This document shows positions 52,661 to 60,710 of a DNA stretch of 64,000 nt, one piece after another. Below the pieces are notes generated by a model. It saw only the letters and a list, made by a program, of their open reading frames with translations, searched no databases and was not told the DNA's origin. Origin of the DNA: Escherichia phage UB. Every line of letters starts with the position of its first letter. Positions within the stretch are counted from its first letter, which is position 1. The translations under genes were made by a program, and so were the position numbers. Location: sequence record MH383160; one strand, 5' to 3'.

Positions 52661-53080
52661 TCATTTACAGTTTTCTATAACTATTGCACGTTTTAGTATT
52701 TTACTTTCATAAACATACTTAAGATGACCTTCTTCACGAATACGATTGAACACATATCCTAGTTTATCTTTTAGTACTGAAGCGGTATCAATGTCAAGAT
52801 TAACTTCAACCCCTCCTGTTAATTTAACTTTATATGTAAAGCTAAAAGCATCACCAGATTCAACCAATGGGACTACTTGTTCATACGTATTCAACATAAC
52901 TCGTTCATCATTAACTAAATTATATATTACTATATCACAAGTTTTTACCCCAATTTCCTCTAATGTAGGAGCATTATCTACTATAACATCTTTTACTGTA
53001 TTTGCAACCTGTTTAGCATCTGCTGCATATACATTAAAACTAAAAAGTACTAAAATAATACTTAAAAAAATCTTTTTCAT
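52661..53080 (-). CDS. putative secreted protein with signal peptide (139 aa)
   Basis: MKKIFLSIILVLFSFNVYAADA. Confidence 0.55.
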   Translation of the reverse strand: MKKIFLSIILVLFSFNVYAADAKQVANTVKDVIVDNAPTLEEIGVKTCDIVIYNLVNDERVMLNTYEQVVPLVESGDAFSFTYKVKLTGGVEVNLDIDTASVLKDKLGYVFNRIREEGHLKYVYESKILKRAIVIENCK

Positions 53081-53089
53081 TATATATCC

Positions 53090-53413
53090 TTATTTTATTT
53101 TACATGTCATATCGGGTTGTGCTTGTTTATTATTTTTAAACGGATTAGGTTTTTTATCTTTCTTTTTATCTTTTAAAGGTTTTTTGTCTTCTTTTTTATC
53201 TTTATCTTTGTCTTTTTTATTTTTATCAGGTTCAGAGGGAGTATTACATTGTGCTGGGGGTTGATTAGTTGGAGTACAGCTATTGTCTGATGGGAGTATT
53301 ACTTCTTTACAATTGTAAAATAGTAAACTTTTATTTGTGGTTAAATTATGAAAACGATAGTTACGTTCATTATTATAATAAATTGTTTTAGTACTTTCAA
53401 TGTCATTGCACAT
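53090..53413 (-). CDS. hypothetical Lys-rich protein (107 aa)
   Basis: ORF; C-terminal KDKDKDKK low-complexity region. Confidence 0.45.
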   Translation of the reverse strand: MCNDIESTKTIYYNNERNYRFHNLTTNKSLLFYNCKEVILPSDNSCTPTNQPPAQCNTPSEPDKNKKDKDKDKKEDKKPLKDKKKDKKPNPFKNNKQAQPDMTCKIK

Positions 53414-53423
53414 TGCTACTGAA

Positions 53424-53675
53424 TCACCGGAACTCTTTTTCTATTCCCATTACATCAGTCTTACGCTCAGATAGTATACCTGAAGTATATGAATCTTTGT
53501 TGTCAAACGCATTAAATCCAATAGTTCTGTCGGTGTCGTGTATTATTCCTTTTGTATATGAGGTAGTATAGAACTCCCCATTTCTGAAATCCTGCCTTGC
53601 TACGGAGCAATGATAATCTGCACCATAAGCAGTACTGGAAAATAATACAATTCCAAATATAATATATTTTTTCAT
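53424..53675 (-). CDS. putative secreted protein with signal peptide (about 83 aa)
   Basis: Start moved to MKKYIIFGIVLFSSTAYGADY. Confidence 0.5.
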   Translation of the reverse strand: MKKYIIFGIVLFSSTAYGADYHCSVARQDFRNGEFYTTSYTKGIIHDTDRTIGFNAFDNKDSYTSGILSERKTDVMGIEKEFR

Positions 53676-53711
53676 TGTAATCCCTCTTCTTAATTCCTCT
53701 TTTGTATTTAC

Positions 53712-53737
53712 AAAAAAAGGCTGACCGAAGTCAACCT
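53712..53737 (-). terminator. Hairpin terminator/promoter cassette
   Basis: AAAAAAAGGCTGACCGAAGTCAACC between 53747..55294 and 53424..53675. Confidence 0.55.
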
Positions 53738-53746
53738 TTTGTTTTA

Positions 53747-55294
53747 TCATTTACCGTATTTGCTCATGATGTCCTTTTCCCAAGGAGTTACATTTCCATT
53801 TTCGTAATCACGGAAAGAGTCATCAAGTGTAGTCAATGCATAATCATATGCCTCACCGGATTCAACATCAATATCAACAGCACCATTCACTACATCAGTC
53901 CACGCTTTTTGTAGTTTACGAGCGTTGTTACCAACTTTATCTTTAATCCAACTAAGATTTCGGTTTATACTCTTCTTATCAGCACCAGCTTTTTCACCAA
54001 CATCTGCAACCCATTGCATTAATTTCTGTAGTTCGTTATGGGATTTTTCAGTCATTTGGCGGTCTTGTGACAGTTCAGCTTCCATGTCATCAATTTCTTC
54101 GTCTGAATGAACATCTTTCTGTTCAACTGCACCTTCTTCATCTGCACGCTTTAGATAACCATCTGGTGTTACCTTCTCACCATGTTCAGCTTCATACTTT
54201 TTCATAGTGTTGAATGCAGCATCCATAGCTGTTACGAAGCGGCTTTTCTCACCTTGTACATAAGATTTAAGTACGCTGTTAACAGCGTCAGATACGAGCT
54301 TAACCTTATCGTCTTTACCTTCTAAACGGTTTTCAAGTTTAGCTAGTACATTCTTGACTTGCTGTGCATTAGCACGGTCTGCTTTACCAATACTATCAAA
54401 AGTTTTAAGAATACTTTCCAGATTAACATCATCGTGTGAGTGTTCATCAAACTCAATATCATTATTTTCGTCTTCATCCTTGAGCGTTAATCCCATTGAT
54501 GTGAGGTCATCAGCAGCACTTGACATTGACATACGAACTGCACGAGAATCATTTACATCATCTACATTTTCAATTGCCATATCAATAATGTACAGTGCTT
54601 TCTCTAAGTCTGTATATTGTTTAGCTTGATTGATAATATCGTTCACAAACTTAGCACCTAAGTAATCATTTACTTCACGGAATTCGTCTTCAGACATTCT
54701 TCCACTAGGTTTGCTTGGTTGTTGATCGGTCTTTTGTGGTAAGGATTTCTGTTTACCTTCAAGTGCACGCATGATAGTACTGAATACTTCAGTAGGTTCA
54801 GTACTGGTATTTCCACTCATTGCATCAAGTACAGCTTGTGCTTTGACTTTTAATTCTTCTTTAGGTACAGATTGCAATTCTTTCACAATACCTTGGATAA
54901 GTTGTGGTTTATTAGCAAAAATCTTACCTAACTTATCAGACAGTTCTTTGACAGGGTTAACCGCCTTTGGTGCTTCTTGTTTTGGTTCTTCTTTCGCAGG
55001 AGCAGACTTTTCTTTTTCTTCACGTTCCATATCAGCTAGGCGTTGTTTTTGTGTAGCATTAAGAAGTCCCAATGAATTAACATAACGTAGCTTTTCTAGC
55101 TCAGTCATATTGGAAGTATCAGTGCCTTGTGTTGCTACTGTGTTTGCTTTACCAGCTTCACCAGTCCCCATGTTTCTAGAACCTTTAGAACCTTGACCTG
55201 CCATATGTGAATTAGGTCTGCGATTTTTTTCTGACCACTTCTCGCTGTGTCCAGAAATGGTAGCACCATTTTTTGATTTGAAATTATCTGGCAT
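53747..55294 (-). CDS. large hydrophilic acidic protein (515 aa), function unknown
   Basis: GGAGA SD; Gly/Ser-rich N-terminus; LEKLRYVNSLGLL module shared with 56185..56568. Confidence 0.6.
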   Translation of the reverse strand: MPDNFKSKNGATISGHSEKWSEKNRRPNSHMAGQGSKGSRNMGTGEAGKANTVATQGTDTSNMTELEKLRYVNSLGLLNATQKQRLADMEREEKEKSAPAKEEPKQEAPKAVNPVKELSDKLGKIFANKPQLIQGIVKELQSVPKEELKVKAQAVLDAMSGNTSTEPTEVFSTIMRALEGKQKSLPQKTDQQPSKPSGRMSEDEFREVNDYLGAKFVNDIINQAKQYTDLEKALYIIDMAIENVDDVNDSRAVRMSMSSAADDLTSMGLTLKDEDENNDIEFDEHSHDDVNLESILKTFDSIGKADRANAQQVKNVLAKLENRLEGKDDKVKLVSDAVNSVLKSYVQGEKSRFVTAMDAAFNTMKKYEAEHGEKVTPDGYLKRADEEGAVEQKDVHSDEEIDDMEAELSQDRQMTEKSHNELQKLMQWVADVGEKAGADKKSINRNLSWIKDKVGNNARKLQKAWTDVVNGAVDIDVESGEAYDYALTTLDDSFRDYENGNVTPWEKDIMSKYGK

Positions 55295-59359: not shown

Positions 59360-59413
59360 AATTAAAATCCTCTAATTTATTAAGAGAATTATAACAAAAA
59401 AGGCTGACCGAAG

Positions 59414-59605
59414 TCAACCTTTGTTTTGAAGTTCTTGAACTAATTGTCGTACTTCGTTAATATTTTTACACTGCTTTACAGTGAAGTAATCATACTTACG
59501 ACCATAGGTTCTTGGGTCATCACCTTCCATATACTGCTGCACATCAAAGATTTGTAAGTAGGGATGCTGCATAACACGAATATTATCACTTTGATAAATC
59601 AACAT
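59414..59605 (-). CDS. hypothetical protein (about 63 aa)
   Basis: Start moved to avoid overlap with 59610..59960. Confidence 0.4.
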   Translation of the reverse strand: MLIYQSDNIRVMQHPYLQIFDVQQYMEGDDPRTYGRKYDYFTVKQCKNINEVRQLVQELQNKG

Positions 59606-59609
59606 AATA

Positions 59610-59960
59610 TCAATCCTTATATTTACACAAGCCACCAAAACTAGTTTCTTTAGCACCACGACGCATCATAACTAATTTAGCATATTGTGTGCCATTACTA
59701 TCTTCATATACATCTACTTCAATAAACGCTAAGAAGTTAGGGTCTGTGTCGTTAGAAAACTCAGTGAAGCTAATGTCGCCTACTGTATGCTCTTTAACAA
59801 ACGTATATGATTGTCCATCAATATATACAATATCTCGATCGTCACTATCACCTTGATAGATATGTTTAATATTACCATCTGTACAAACTAAACCTTCCAA
59901 TGGTTCAGCATATGACAATCCACACATTAACATACATACAAAAAATAAAATAATTTTCAT
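59610..59960 (-). CDS. putative secreted protein with signal peptide (116 aa)
   Basis: MKIILFFVCMLMCGLSYA. Confidence 0.55.
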   Translation of the reverse strand: MKIILFFVCMLMCGLSYAEPLEGLVCTDGNIKHIYQGDSDDRDIVYIDGQSYTFVKEHTVGDISFTEFSNDTDPNFLAFIEVDVYEDSNGTQYAKLVMMRRGAKETSFGGLCKYKD

Positions 59961-59962
59961 GA

Positions 59963-60340
59963 TTATTTTCCTCCAACGTTAAGTGATTTCTTGTACTGAT
60001 ATTCTTTATAAGTACTATACCATATATCACCAACGTAAATCAAGTACCACGTAGCAGGATAAAGAGCCAATCCAGTACTGATGTATACGAACTTTTGGTC
60101 AAGGACATCAAATACATACAGAAGGAAAGTTACTCCCATAATGCAAGAACAAATTAACCACAAGTTATAAGCAATCGAATCGCAAGCAAAAATAGAATCA
60201 AGCTTAGAAATTAGGACATATTTGTTTGTTAAAATGAAATGAATTACTGCAACTAAACAATATCCTGCCATAAAAATAGAAATTAAAAAAGACAGAATAA
60301 TTGGAATATTCAACAACAAAAGTAAAATAGTGTTTACCAT
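59963..60340 (-). CDS. small membrane protein (125 aa)
   Basis: Three or four hydrophobic segments. Confidence 0.55.
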   Translation of the reverse strand: MVNTILLLLLNIPIILSFLISIFMAGYCLVAVIHFILTNKYVLISKLDSIFACDSIAYNLWLICSCIMGVTFLLYVFDVLDQKFVYISTGLALYPATWYLIYVGDIWYSTYKEYQYKKSLNVGGK

Positions 60341-60350
60341 TTTTTAAGTC

Positions 60351-60710
60351 CTATATTTCACAGTGTAAGTTCAATTTATCTATATCTAGGTCACGGCGTA
60401 CCGATGAGTCCAAGTAAATTACTATATAGATATCACCATTACCAGTTCTTGGGTCTACAATTAATATTACGTTTGCTAATGTACCAGAATCATCTCTATA
60501 AGTCGAGATTTTTTTATTACCGATAATACTTTCTACTTTAAAACGATAAATCACACCATCAACAACTATATTTTTACCATTTCTAGGGTCGTTAGTCAAT
60601 ACATGCCACGTTCCCTTAGTACTACGACAATATGTTTCTGCTGCTGCACCATAACTAAAACATGAAAATAATGCACACACAAGTGCTATTAATTTTATAT
60701 AACTCTTCAT
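60351..60710 (-). CDS. putative secreted protein with signal peptide (119 aa)
   Basis: MKSYIKLIALVCALFSCFSYGAAA. Confidence 0.55.
   Translation of the reverse strand: MKSYIKLIALVCALFSCFSYGAAAETYCRSTKGTWHVLTNDPRNGKNIVVDGVIYRFKVESIIGNKKISTYRDDSGTLANVILIVDPRTGNGDIYIVIYLDSSVRRDLDIDKLNLHCEI

What the first reader, a model, noticed from the sequence alone, without database searches (positions are those of the whole stretch)
52661..60710. Several small signal-peptide proteins among the early genes
52661..53080, 53424..53675, 57721..57942, 59610..59960 and 60351..60710 (plus 15582..15881 and 44603..44929) start with classic Sec-type signal peptides. Exported small phage proteins may act in the periplasm, for example lysis control, exclusion or receptor masking.
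Basis: inference. Interest (0 to 1): 0.4.

Follow-up and report, generated by a model that had tools for sequence, protein, structure and literature searches.

The report
Exported small proteins of jumbo phage
A giant E. coli phage (121Q/PBECO4 group) encodes seven small proteins that almost certainly get exported to the space between the bacterial membranes; three belong to a phage-only family shaped like bacterial lysozyme inhibitors, but what any of them does is untested.

Summary
All seven ORFs exist at the stated coordinates, on the minus strand, each with a Shine-Dalgarno site and an N-terminus built like a Sec/signal-peptidase-I signal peptide. My rule-based scan picks out exactly these seven among about 141 genes, none of 139 non-gene ORFs, and 0.13 per shuffled proteome. 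The signal-peptide character persists in orthologs whose sequence has diverged. Six of the seven mature parts carry one Cys near each end, which fits periplasmic disulfides.

The window is an Asteriusvirus jumbo phage. The proteins fall into at least five unrelated, phage-restricted families. D, E and G (59610, 60351, 44603) are paralogs. An AlphaFold model (pLDDT 84) gives an eight-stranded beta-barrel with invariant Cys in strands 1 and 8, the MliC/PliC/ACP layout, but without the MliC motifs or any sequence match. D and E sit in a module with small membrane proteins that is syntenic as far as Klebsiella phage RaK2.

"Early genes" rests only on consensus sigma-70 promoters and PeSL-like terminator/promoter hairpins. 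The lysis genes lie elsewhere. Function is inferred: envelope remodelling or superinfection exclusion. This is an ordinary kind of thing with one new family. I could not run SignalP.

The parts
52661..53080 (-). A: 139-aa exported protein. Signal peptide about residues 1-19 (VYA|AD). Mature part has Cys48 and Cys138. Last gene of a B / 107-aa ORF / A cassette.
   Evidence: Orthologs at about 41% identity in JNE01 and Ecwhy_1 keep the signal peptide and both Cys. Found only in Asteriusvirus-type phages. No Pfam, NCBIfam or PADLOC family. The single-sequence model was unusable, pLDDT 50.
53424..53675 (-). B: 83-aa exported protein. Signal peptide about residues 1-18 (AYG|AD). Only one Cys in the mature part.
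   Evidence: phrog_28901, unknown function. In Salmonella phage PHA46 the B domain is fused to a homolog of the next ORF, and the missing partner Cys aligns with Cys2 of that ORF. Absent from JNE01.
53090..53413 (-). 107-aa Cys- and Lys/Asp-rich ORF between B and A. No signal peptide of its own and no clear SD. Probably the split-off C-terminal half of an ancestral B-type exported protein.
   Evidence: 32% identity over 94 aa to residues 115-205 of the fused PHA46 protein.
57721..57942 (-). C: 73-aa exported protein. Signal peptide 1-17 (VSA|KQ). Mature part is 56 aa with Cys25 and Cys69.
   Evidence: Orthologs in phage A4 (44%) and JNE01 (29%) keep the signal peptide and the Cys pair. phrog_31284, unknown function. 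A terminator-like hairpin lies just upstream at 57985-57964.
59610..59960 (-). D: 116-aa exported protein. Signal peptide 1-18 (SYA|EP). Member of the D/E/G beta-barrel family, with Cys26 and Cys112.
   Evidence: Present in all 44 related jumbo-phage records, including RaK2 and K64-1 at about 41% identity.
60351..60710 (-). E: 119-aa exported protein, cleaved after residue 21 or 24. Paralog of D. Modelled as an eight-stranded beta-barrel with Cys in strand 1 and strand 8.
   Evidence: (pLDDT 84, pTM 0.74). The lipobox-like ALFSC is not conserved. Present but unannotated in phAPEC6.
44603..44929 (-). G: 108-aa exported protein. Signal peptide 1-18 (VNA|KN). Third, divergent paralog of D and E. 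An accessory gene.
   Evidence: Found only in 121Q and PBECO4 records. Lies between a homing-endonuclease-like gene and a PeSL-like element.
15582..15881 (-). F: 99-aa exported protein. Signal peptide 1-19 (VNA|SL), with Cys31 and Cys98. A single-gene unit with its own promoter and terminator.
   Evidence: promoter TTGCAA-16-TATAAT at 15960-15933, terminator at 15564-15543. Homologs occur in 50 phage records, including a Vequintavirinae phage. It lies in the terminal repeat, and the Muenster ortholog is annotated 'putative secreted protein'.
59963..60340 (-). 125-aa polytopic membrane protein encoded between E and D.
   Evidence: Orthologs lie in the same position in JNE01 (41%) and RaK2 (about 27%). 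The Muenster ortholog is annotated as a membrane protein.
60789..61115 (-). 108-aa membrane protein with three hydrophobic segments. First gene after the consensus promoter, upstream of E.
61173..61415 (-). 80-aa membrane protein with three hydrophobic segments, at the upstream edge of the envelope module.
61162..61189 (-). Perfect sigma-70 consensus promoter (TTGACA-16-TATAAT), placed to drive the 108-aa membrane gene, E, the 125-aa membrane gene, D and a 63-aa ORF.
   Evidence: 12 of 12 matches. Function inferred.
59399..59422 (-). PeSL-like hairpin (terminator with an embedded -35, followed by TATAAT) that closes the E/D unit.
53716..53739 (-). PeSL-like hairpin upstream of B. It terminates the 515-aa gene and carries a TTGACT -35.
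52631..52654 (-). PeSL-like hairpin downstream of A. It closes the B / 107-aa ORF / A cassette and supplies a promoter for the kinase gene.
44566..44583 (-). PeSL-like hairpin immediately downstream of G.

Best explanation
The seven ORFs are real genes of an Asteriusvirus jumbo phage (121Q/PBECO4/G17 type). Their products are exported by the host Sec pathway, cleaved by signal peptidase I, and released as small soluble periplasmic proteins. In six of the seven, a disulfide between a Cys near the mature N-terminus and a Cys at the C-terminus probably stabilises the protein.

They are not one family. A, B, C and F are four unrelated phage-only families. D, E and G are paralogs of a fifth.

The D/E/G fold is a compact eight-stranded up-and-down beta-barrel, closed by the strand-1/strand-8 Cys pair, with an invariant Gly in the strand-4/strand-5 loop. 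This is the architecture of the periplasmic MliC/PliC/ACP lysozyme inhibitors.

D and E are co-transcribed from a consensus sigma-70 promoter with small polytopic inner-membrane proteins. The gene order 80-aa TM, 108-aa TM, E, 125-aa TM, D is conserved from Asteriusvirus to Alcyoneusvirus. The other exported proteins sit in accessory cassettes bounded by PeSL-like terminator/promoter hairpins or in the terminal repeat.

What is shown:
- the gene structures;
- the signal-peptide architecture and its conservation;
- the family relationships;
- the predicted fold;
- the synteny.

What is inferred:
- Timing is early, by host RNA polymerase.
- Export and disulfide formation actually occur.
- Function: soon after infection the phage remodels the envelope, and the E/D module acts as a periplasm-plus-membrane shield, analogous to T4 Spackle plus Imm. 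It would bind a peptidoglycan hydrolase, either the tail lysozyme of a superinfecting phage or the phage's own SAR endolysin.

I put about 0.85 on export, about 0.6 on early expression, and about 0.2 on the hydrolase-inhibitor/exclusion mechanism.
For: Export:
- Signal-peptide architecture is present in all seven, with short 8-15 residue hydrophobic cores and AXA-type sites.
- The scan is specific: 7 of about 141 genes, 0 of 139 non-gene ORFs, 0.135 per shuffled proteome.
- SD sites precede each start.
- Orthologs at 29-60% identity keep a signal peptide of different sequence. Nearly all small members of the D/E/G family do too.
- Cys pairs at both ends of the mature part are conserved in A, C, F, D, E and G.
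- The Muenster ortholog of F is annotated as secreted.

Families:
- D/E/G alignments have invariant Cys, Gly and Cys.
- hhalign finds no link among A, B, C, F and D/E/G.
- An exhaustive profile search finds only 18 representatives. The small ones are phage-type proteins.

Fold:
- The model has pLDDT 84 and eight strands.
- The strand-1/strand-8 disulfide is the MliC/PliC/ACP hallmark (PMC5507604, PMC2267010).

Context:
- The module is syntenic in JNE01, RaK2 and Muenster.
- Promoters and PeSL-like hairpins flank the units.
- RpoD-type promoters mark the presumed early region and terminal repeat in the related phage CBB (PMC5259590).
- Envelope-targeted proteins are more diverged from JNE01 than their neighbours (median 42% against 66%; Mann-Whitney one-sided p = 0.005, n = 7 and 10).

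Precedent: T4 Spackle is an early, periplasmic, disulfide-bonded inhibitor of the gp5 tail lysozyme and works alongside the membrane protein Imm (PMC7677548).
Against: - No dedicated predictor (SignalP, LipoP) and no experiment was available. My scan is a home-made rule set.
- The curated Muenster annotation calls the E ortholog only 'hypothetical'. It calls the D ortholog a '1-TMD membrane protein', so an uncleaved anchor is not excluded.
- The RaK2 E ortholog has no Lys or Arg in its n-region.
- There is no Pfam MliC hit and no PDB sequence hit. Neither MliC motif is conserved.
- No target hydrolase was identified, and the phage's lysis genes are far away.
- Early timing rests on promoter consensus only. 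Promoter-like hits in this AT-rich stretch are barely above shuffles overall (71 against 58.5 +/- 7.5).
- B has an unpaired Cys and may be a remnant.
Confidence: 0.7

Rival explanations
1. The N-terminal hydrophobic segments are uncleaved signal anchors or SAR-type segments. The proteins would then be type II inner-membrane proteins with periplasmic domains, not free periplasmic proteins.
For: TMHMM-based curation of phage Muenster labels the D ortholog '1 TMD'. K64-1 labels it 'membrane protein'. The neighbours of D and E are membrane proteins, so a membrane complex is plausible. The endolysin of this phage group is SAR-type (PMC5259590).
Against: The hydrophobic cores are only 8-15 residues. 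Each is followed by a polar c-region with small residues at -3/-1, in all seven and in their orthologs. TMHMM is known to call signal peptides TM helices (general knowledge). The Muenster D call used an extended upstream start.
Confidence: 0.12
2. They are lipoproteins that mask or block outer-membrane receptors, like T5 Llp or the Cor proteins.
For: E matches the PROSITE-style lipobox rule (ALFS-C17). BFVD gives a weak structural match to a 'Lipoprotein' of Serratia phage Scapp (E 0.027, TM 0.56).
Against: None of the other six has a lipobox. In the E family the Cys is present in only 2 of 5 close homologs and is absent from the JNE01 and RaK2 orthologs, which have AXA sites instead.
Confidence: 0.05
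3. They are lysis-timing components: antiholins like T4 RI, spanin parts, or periplasmic regulators of the SAR endolysin.
For: T4 RI is a small exported periplasmic protein (established knowledge). The group's endolysin is membrane-tethered in the periplasm before release, so a periplasmic inhibitor with an MliC-like fold could delay it.
Against: The 121Q spanins are gp511/512 and the endolysin is gp532, about 140 kb away. These genes carry sigma-70-type rather than late-type promoters. There is no sequence similarity to any lysis protein.
Confidence: 0.1
4. They are generic, fast-evolving 'ORFan' accessory proteins that are exported but have no shared or envelope-specific role. For example, each could bind a different host periplasmic or surface target, or be nearly neutral cargo of PeSL cassettes.
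For: There are five unrelated families. G occurs in only four records and B is absent from JNE01. Several are located in cassettes next to homing-endonuclease-like genes. No family annotation exists anywhere.
Against: D, E and the membrane genes keep synteny across two genera. F is retained in 50 records across subfamilies. That argues for selected functions at least for these.
Confidence: 0.3

Closest known systems
T4 Spackle (gp61.3) together with Imm: early superinfection-exclusion pair
   Same: A small early phage protein with a cleaved periplasmic targeting signal and a disulfide, acting in the periplasm alongside a small inner-membrane protein (PMC7677548). The E/D module here likewise combines exported proteins with small membrane proteins, behind a sigma-70 promoter.
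   Different: Spackle is an alpha-helical bundle, whereas D/E/G are predicted all-beta barrels. There is no sequence similarity. No lysozyme binding or exclusion has been shown here.
MliC/PliC (COG3895, PF09864) and Neisseria ACP periplasmic lysozyme inhibitors
T5 Llp / Cor-type phage lipoproteins (receptor blocking)
   Same: Small phage proteins targeted beyond the inner membrane to alter the cell surface against further infection (established knowledge).
   Different: Those are lipoproteins. Here only E has a lipobox-like string, and it is not conserved.
PeSL (promoter-early stem-loop) cassettes of T4-like phages
   Same: Composite terminator/early-promoter hairpins bounding variable accessory genes in hyperplastic regions (PMC2839356, PMC4122927). 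Here AAAGGGTTGACTTCGGTCAGCCCTTTTTGCTATAAT-type elements bound the cassettes that hold A/B and G and close the E/D unit.
   Different: Seen here in a RaK2-like jumbo phage rather than a T4-like phage. A role in recombination is only suggested by presence/absence differences between relatives.

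Membership tests
Sec-type signal peptide cleaved by signal peptidase I | Positively charged n-region, a 7-15-residue uncharged hydrophobic h-region, and a polar c-region with small residues at -3 and -1 | tested here: met
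   All seven meet it. The scan is specific against non-gene ORFs and shuffles. It is a rule-based scan, not SignalP.
Sec-type signal peptide cleaved by signal peptidase I | The property is conserved in orthologs while the signal-peptide sequence drifts | tested here: met
   A, C, D, E and F orthologs in JNE01, RaK2, A4, Ecwhy_1, UPEC06 and Muenster. D/E/G family members. The Ecwhy_1 B ortholog fails my strict rule because of an Asp in the c-region, but still looks like a signal peptide.
Sec-type signal peptide cleaved by signal peptidase I | Demonstrated export and cleavage (PhoA fusion, mature N-terminus) | not testable with these tools
   Needs an experiment. The only outside support is the 'putative secreted protein' annotation of the Muenster F ortholog.
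Bacterial lipoprotein (signal peptidase II) | Lipobox [LVI][ASTVI][GAS]C, or PROSITE PS51257, at the end of the h-region, conserved in the family | tested here: not met
   Only E matches the PROSITE-style pattern. It is absent in P0002, P0004, P0005 and the JNE01 and RaK2 orthologs.
MliC/PliC lysozyme inhibitors (PF09864 / COG3895) | Sequence match to the family model | tested here: not met
   No Pfam hit at E <= 1. A profile search of PDB sequences finds no MliC or PliC chain at E <= 10.
MliC/PliC lysozyme inhibitors (PF09864 / COG3895) | Eight-stranded antiparallel beta-barrel | tested here: met
MliC/PliC lysozyme inhibitors (PF09864 / COG3895) | Disulfide between strand 1 and strand 8 | tested here: inconclusive
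   Invariant Cys7 lies in strand 1 (residues 5-9) and invariant Cys96 in strand 8 (residues 91-97). I could not read the model coordinates, so the S-S distance was not measured.
MliC/PliC lysozyme inhibitors (PF09864 / COG3895) | Conserved motifs SxSGAxY (loop 4) and YxxxTKG (strand 6) | tested here: not met
   A regex over 36 family sequences finds no SxSG(A)xY. YxxxTKG occurs only in E and its 98% twin, on strand 1 and not strand 6, so I treat it as chance.
MliC/PliC lysozyme inhibitors (PF09864 / COG3895) | Inhibition of a lysozyme or peptidoglycan hydrolase | not testable with these tools
   Needs a biochemical assay.
T4 Spackle family | Sequence similarity, or an alpha-helical bundle fold | tested here: not met
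   PHROGs and Pfam give only unknown-function families. The E model is all-beta.
Spanins / lysis cassette | Identity with the i-/o-spanin genes of this phage group, or adjacency to them or to the endolysin | tested here: not met
   The 121Q spanins are PBI_121Q_511/512 at 245.3-246.0 kb. The endolysin is gp532. The genes studied here correspond to 121Q genes 188-204 and 222, at about 97-113 kb.
PeSL-type terminator/early-promoter element | GC-rich hairpin plus T-run with an embedded -35, a consensus -10 at about 17-18 nt, repeated in intergenic sites | tested here: met
   Five copies within 3 mismatches of one 24-mer, against 0 expected. Eleven minus-strand copies with a relaxed pattern, each followed by TATAAT/TATTAT and then an SD and ATG. 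Promoter and terminator activity were not tested.

The most novel reading that the evidence does not exclude
The D/E/G proteins are a previously unrecognised, phage-encoded class of periplasmic peptidoglycan-hydrolase inhibitors. They would be convergent with, or very distantly related to, MliC/PliC/ACP. Together with the conserved small membrane proteins, they would form the superinfection-exclusion or anti-lysis-from-without system of RaK2-like jumbo phages: a beta-barrel counterpart of T4 Spackle/Imm.
Probability: 0.15. Interest if true: 0.6.

Novelty: new member of a known kind. Interest (0 to 1): 0.3.

Why it matters
Phage proteins sent to the periplasm are the ones that change how an infected cell meets the outside world, through superinfection exclusion, receptor masking and control of cell-wall hydrolases. 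Few have been characterised outside T4, T5 and lambda.

Jumbo phages of the RaK2/121Q group are phage-therapy candidates, and more than 80% of their genes have no known function. This work reduces seven anonymous ORFs to a short, testable list. It includes one conserved five-gene envelope module and one new small beta-barrel family with a lysozyme-inhibitor-like architecture.

If the inhibitor idea holds, it would explain exclusion in this phage group and add a new inhibitor scaffold. If it fails, these remain ordinary exported accessory proteins.

Tried and rejected
- Family libraries: Pfam, PHROGs, NCBIfam and PADLOC scans of all seven proteins and three neighbours gave only sub-threshold noise or unknown-function PHROGs.
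- Homolog searches for E, for the D/E/G profile and for A returned only jumbo-phage proteins.
- The exhaustive profile search added two giant proteins, P0026 and P0030. They turned out to be Ig-repeat proteins matching a beta-hairpin segment repeatedly, and I rejected them as spurious.
- IMG/VR scans for A and F gave nothing useful.
- hhalign among the five families found no relationship, so the idea that all seven are one family is rejected.
The single-sequence model had pLDDT 50 and was not searched.
- The AFDB library was unavailable. Foldseek against the PDB gave no significant match.
- The profile against PDB sequences gave only noise, such as Rheb and DYRK1A.
- The exact YxxxTKG string in E is rejected as a MliC motif: it is on the wrong strand and is not conserved.
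- The lipoprotein reading of E is rejected for lack of conservation.
- I suspected E was a divergence hotspot among close relatives. That was wrong: E is 100% identical in phAPEC6, just unannotated.
- The phAPEC6 virion-proteome paper gave no mention of these gene products in its main text, so virion association was not resolved.
- No transcriptome exists for this phage group in the searched literature.

Full report
**What the window is.** Region 52.0-61.5 kb is 97-99% identical to Escherichia jumbo phages of genus Asteriusvirus (JP4, SP27, phAPEC6, G17, PBECO4, 121Q). It is more distantly related to other RaK2-like phages. In every annotated relative the ORFs in question are 'hypothetical protein'.

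**Checking the observation.** All seven coordinate pairs are exact minus-strand ORFs. I label them:
- A: 52661-53080
- B: 53424-53675
- C: 57721-57942
- D: 59610-59960
- E: 60351-60710
- F: 15582-15881
- G: 44603-44929

Each begins with one to three Lys residues, then an uncharged hydrophobic core of 8-15 residues, then a short polar stretch ending in small residues at -3/-1: VYA|AD, AYG|AD, VSA|KQ, SYA|EP, SYG or AAA|ET, VNA|SL, VNA|KN. Each ATG is preceded at 6-10 nt by an SD-like sequence.

B's start is an internal ATG of a longer ORF. The longer reading would run through a terminator hairpin, and only the internal ATG has an RBS. G17 annotates the short form and phAPEC6 the long one.

SignalP was not available, so I wrote a rule-based scan and controlled it.
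- Among about 141 non-overlapping gene calls in the window, it returns exactly these proteins as 'signal peptide plus no further hydrophobic segment': six with the first start, plus B with its RBS-supported start.
- It returns none among 139 non-gene ORFs.
- It returns 0.135 +/- 0.36 (maximum 2) per shuffled proteome.
- The other hydrophobic N-termini in the window belong to multi-pass membrane proteins.

**Independent support for export.**
- Orthologs keep the signal-peptide architecture although the sequence has drifted.
  - E is MKYVIITITFLIGLISSSANA in JNE01 and MHILLSLVLSTILLSFLPASVSA in RaK2.
  - D is MKTIIFFVLMMICSISARA in RaK2.
  - A is MKKTILSVIGAVLFMVTSVASA in JNE01.
  - C is MKKIALGLAFLALSASSFA in JNE01.
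  - F is MMIKVIALTALLCMPFLAHG in the Vequintavirinae phage UPEC06 and MKKIILAVTLMVSASSVMA in Muenster.
- Six of the seven mature parts contain exactly two Cys, one near the mature N-terminus and one within five residues of the C-terminus. These pairs are conserved in orthologs. That pattern fits disulfide formation in the oxidising periplasm.
- The Muenster ortholog of F was annotated by its depositors as 'putative secreted protein (SignalP N, H, C regions)'.
- Against this, the same annotators left the E ortholog as 'hypothetical' and called the D ortholog a one-TMD membrane protein. An uncleaved anchor therefore remains a minority possibility.

**What the proteins are.**

Family libraries gave nothing beyond unknown-function PHROGs. 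Profile-profile comparison shows no relationship among A, B, C, F and the D/E/G group, so there are at least five families.

D, E and G are paralogs.
- They align along their whole length with invariant Cys, Gly and Cys and a shared '(I/V)DGxxYxF...G' core.
- PHROG cross-hits agree.
- The family is tiny. There were 21 hits in the 5.8-billion-protein index and 18 representatives in the exhaustive profile search. All the small ones look like phage proteins with signal peptides.
- Two giant hits are Ig-repeat proteins and spurious.

An AlphaFold model of mature E from the family alignment is confident (pLDDT 84, pTM 0.74) and has eight beta-strands. The invariant Cys lie in strand 1 and strand 8, and the invariant Gly lies in the loop between strands 4 and 5.

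- Compact eight-stranded barrels come out on top.

Foldseek finds nothing significant in the PDB. In the viral structure library it finds only family members, then weak matches to a 'Lipoprotein' and a 'Putative lysozyme inhibitor' of Serratia phages.

Per the literature, MliC/PliC and ACP are eight-stranded barrels with a strand-1/strand-8 disulfide. MliC/PliC carry the motifs SxSGAxY (loop 4) and YxxxTKG (strand 6), and ACP lacks both yet still inhibits lysozyme (PMC5507604, PMC2267010).

In the D/E/G family neither motif is conserved. An exact YxxxTKG occurs in E only, on strand 1, which I regard as chance. There is no sequence-level match to the family.

D/E/G therefore share the architecture and compartment of these inhibitors but fail the membership test. 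Function is neither implied nor excluded.

A could not be modelled. No allowed homologs were available, and the single-sequence model had pLDDT 50.

**Gene context.**

D and E lie in a run of envelope-targeted genes: an 80-aa three-segment membrane protein (61173-61415), a 108-aa membrane protein (60789-61115), E, a 125-aa membrane protein (59963-60340), D, and then a 63-aa soluble ORF. The order and the orthology of all five envelope genes are kept in JNE01 (40-60% identity) and in the Klebsiella phages RaK2 and Muenster (24-46%).

A perfect TTGACA-16-TATAAT promoter sits at 61189-61162, in front of the 108-aa gene. The unit ends at a hairpin at 59422-59399.

That hairpin belongs to a repeated element, AAAGGGTTGACTTCGGTCAGCCCTTTTTGCTATAAT. 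It is a terminator stem-loop whose stem contains a -35 hexamer, followed by a -10. There are five copies within 3 mismatches of a 24-mer against 0 expected, and eleven minus-strand copies with a relaxed pattern. This is the design of the PeSL 'promoter-early stem-loop' cassettes of T4-like phages (PMC2839356, PMC4122927).

How the other genes sit:
- B, a 107-aa ORF and A form a cassette between two such elements (53739-53716 and 52654-52631).
- G is the last gene before another such element (44583-44566) and follows a homing-endonuclease-like gene.
- F is a single-gene unit with its own promoter (15960-15933) and terminator (15564-15543). It lies in the direct terminal repeat in relatives.
- C follows a terminator-like hairpin (57985-57964).

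In the related phage CBB, RpoD-type promoters mark the presumed early region and the terminal repeat (PMC5259590).

'Early genes' is thus a reasonable inference, but no transcript data exist. Generic promoter-like hits in this AT-rich DNA are barely above shuffles, and two virion structural genes share the stretch.

**Distribution.**
- D and E occur in all 44 related records.
- F is in 50 records, A in 32, B in 35, C in 31 and G in only 4.
- Compared with JNE01, the seven envelope-targeted proteins of the 52-62 kb stretch are more diverged than their ten cytoplasmic neighbours: 29-61% against 37-94% identity, Mann-Whitney one-sided p = 0.005, small n. That fits proteins facing an arms race but is not proof.

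**Function.**
- Lysis roles are disfavoured. The spanins of 121Q are gp511/512 and the SAR-type endolysin is gp532, about 140 kb away.
- Lipoprotein-type receptor masking is disfavoured. Only E has a lipobox-like string, and it is not conserved.
- The closest working analogy is T4, where the early periplasmic, disulfide-bonded Spackle inhibits the incoming gp5 tail lysozyme and the membrane protein Imm blocks DNA entry (PMC7677548).
- My best mechanistic guess is that the E/D module is a periplasm-plus-membrane shield of this kind, with the barrels binding a peptidoglycan hydrolase. I give that about 0.2.
- That the seven are truly exported I put at about 0.85.

**Verdict.** The kind of thing, small exported accessory proteins of a lytic phage, is well known. 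The D/E/G barrel family and its conserved envelope module are undescribed members of that kind. Interest is modest.

Noticed in passing
window minus strand: 59422-59399, 56177-56160, 53739-53716, 52654-52631, 48039-48016, 46757-46734, 44583-44566, 12539-12522, 8513-8496, 5246-5229, 2988-2971: A repeated composite terminator/promoter hairpin (AAAGGGTTGACTTCGGTCAGCCCTTTTTGCTATAAT; a variant GGGATTGACTCCGGTCAGTCCC...TATTATAT occurs in the first 13 kb). It resembles the PeSL elements of T4-like phages, here in a RaK2-like jumbo phage. The elements bound cassettes that differ between relatives.
   Followed up: partly
window 53090-53413 (-) and 53424-53675 (-); L005:1099-1779: In Salmonella phage PHA46, B and the 107-aa Cys/Lys-rich ORF are one fused protein. 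In the window they are split by a TGA and a +1 frame offset, with no SD before the second ORF. B's lone Cys would pair with Cys2 of the downstream ORF. This is either a split gene or a possible frameshift site.
   Followed up: partly
window 55334-56107 (-) and 44950-46413 (-): Two ORFs with repeated Cys-x2-Cys zinc-finger-like motifs and a 'KFGIT' segment look like homing endonucleases. The first is absent from G17 and phAPEC6, where a 114-nt ORF sits between two terminators. A RaK2 'endonuclease' is 35% identical to it.
   Followed up: partly
window 40907-43687 (-), 50915-51604 (-): Tandem arrays of small (104-141 aa) proteins with three or four hydrophobic segments. They look like paralogous membrane proteins. 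This phage devotes many small genes to the envelope.
   Followed up: no
L010:7440-7796 (phAPEC6, MK817115.1 about 33174-33530): Gene E is present and 100% identical in phAPEC6 but is not annotated there. There is a gap between gp048c and gp049c.
   Followed up: yes
window 15582-15881 (-): F lies in the direct terminal repeat in relatives: two copies per record in JP4, CRJP21 and vB_Ec-M-J, and inside the PhageTerm-predicted repeat in Muenster. It also has a 30%-identical homolog in a 143-kb Vequintavirinae phage (UPEC06). It is therefore the most widely spread of the seven.
   Followed up: partly
window 54438-54754 within the 515-aa 'virion structural protein' gene 53747-55294 (-): The central part of this acidic structural protein is the only segment, apart from the endonuclease insert, that does not align with phAPEC6 at the DNA level. 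The adjoining segment 54754-55305 is only 87% identical, against 98-99% elsewhere.
   Followed up: no
window 51950-52591 (-): A T7 gp0.7-like protein kinase gene lies immediately downstream of the A cassette, behind a PeSL-like promoter. That fits an early host-takeover neighbourhood.
   Followed up: no
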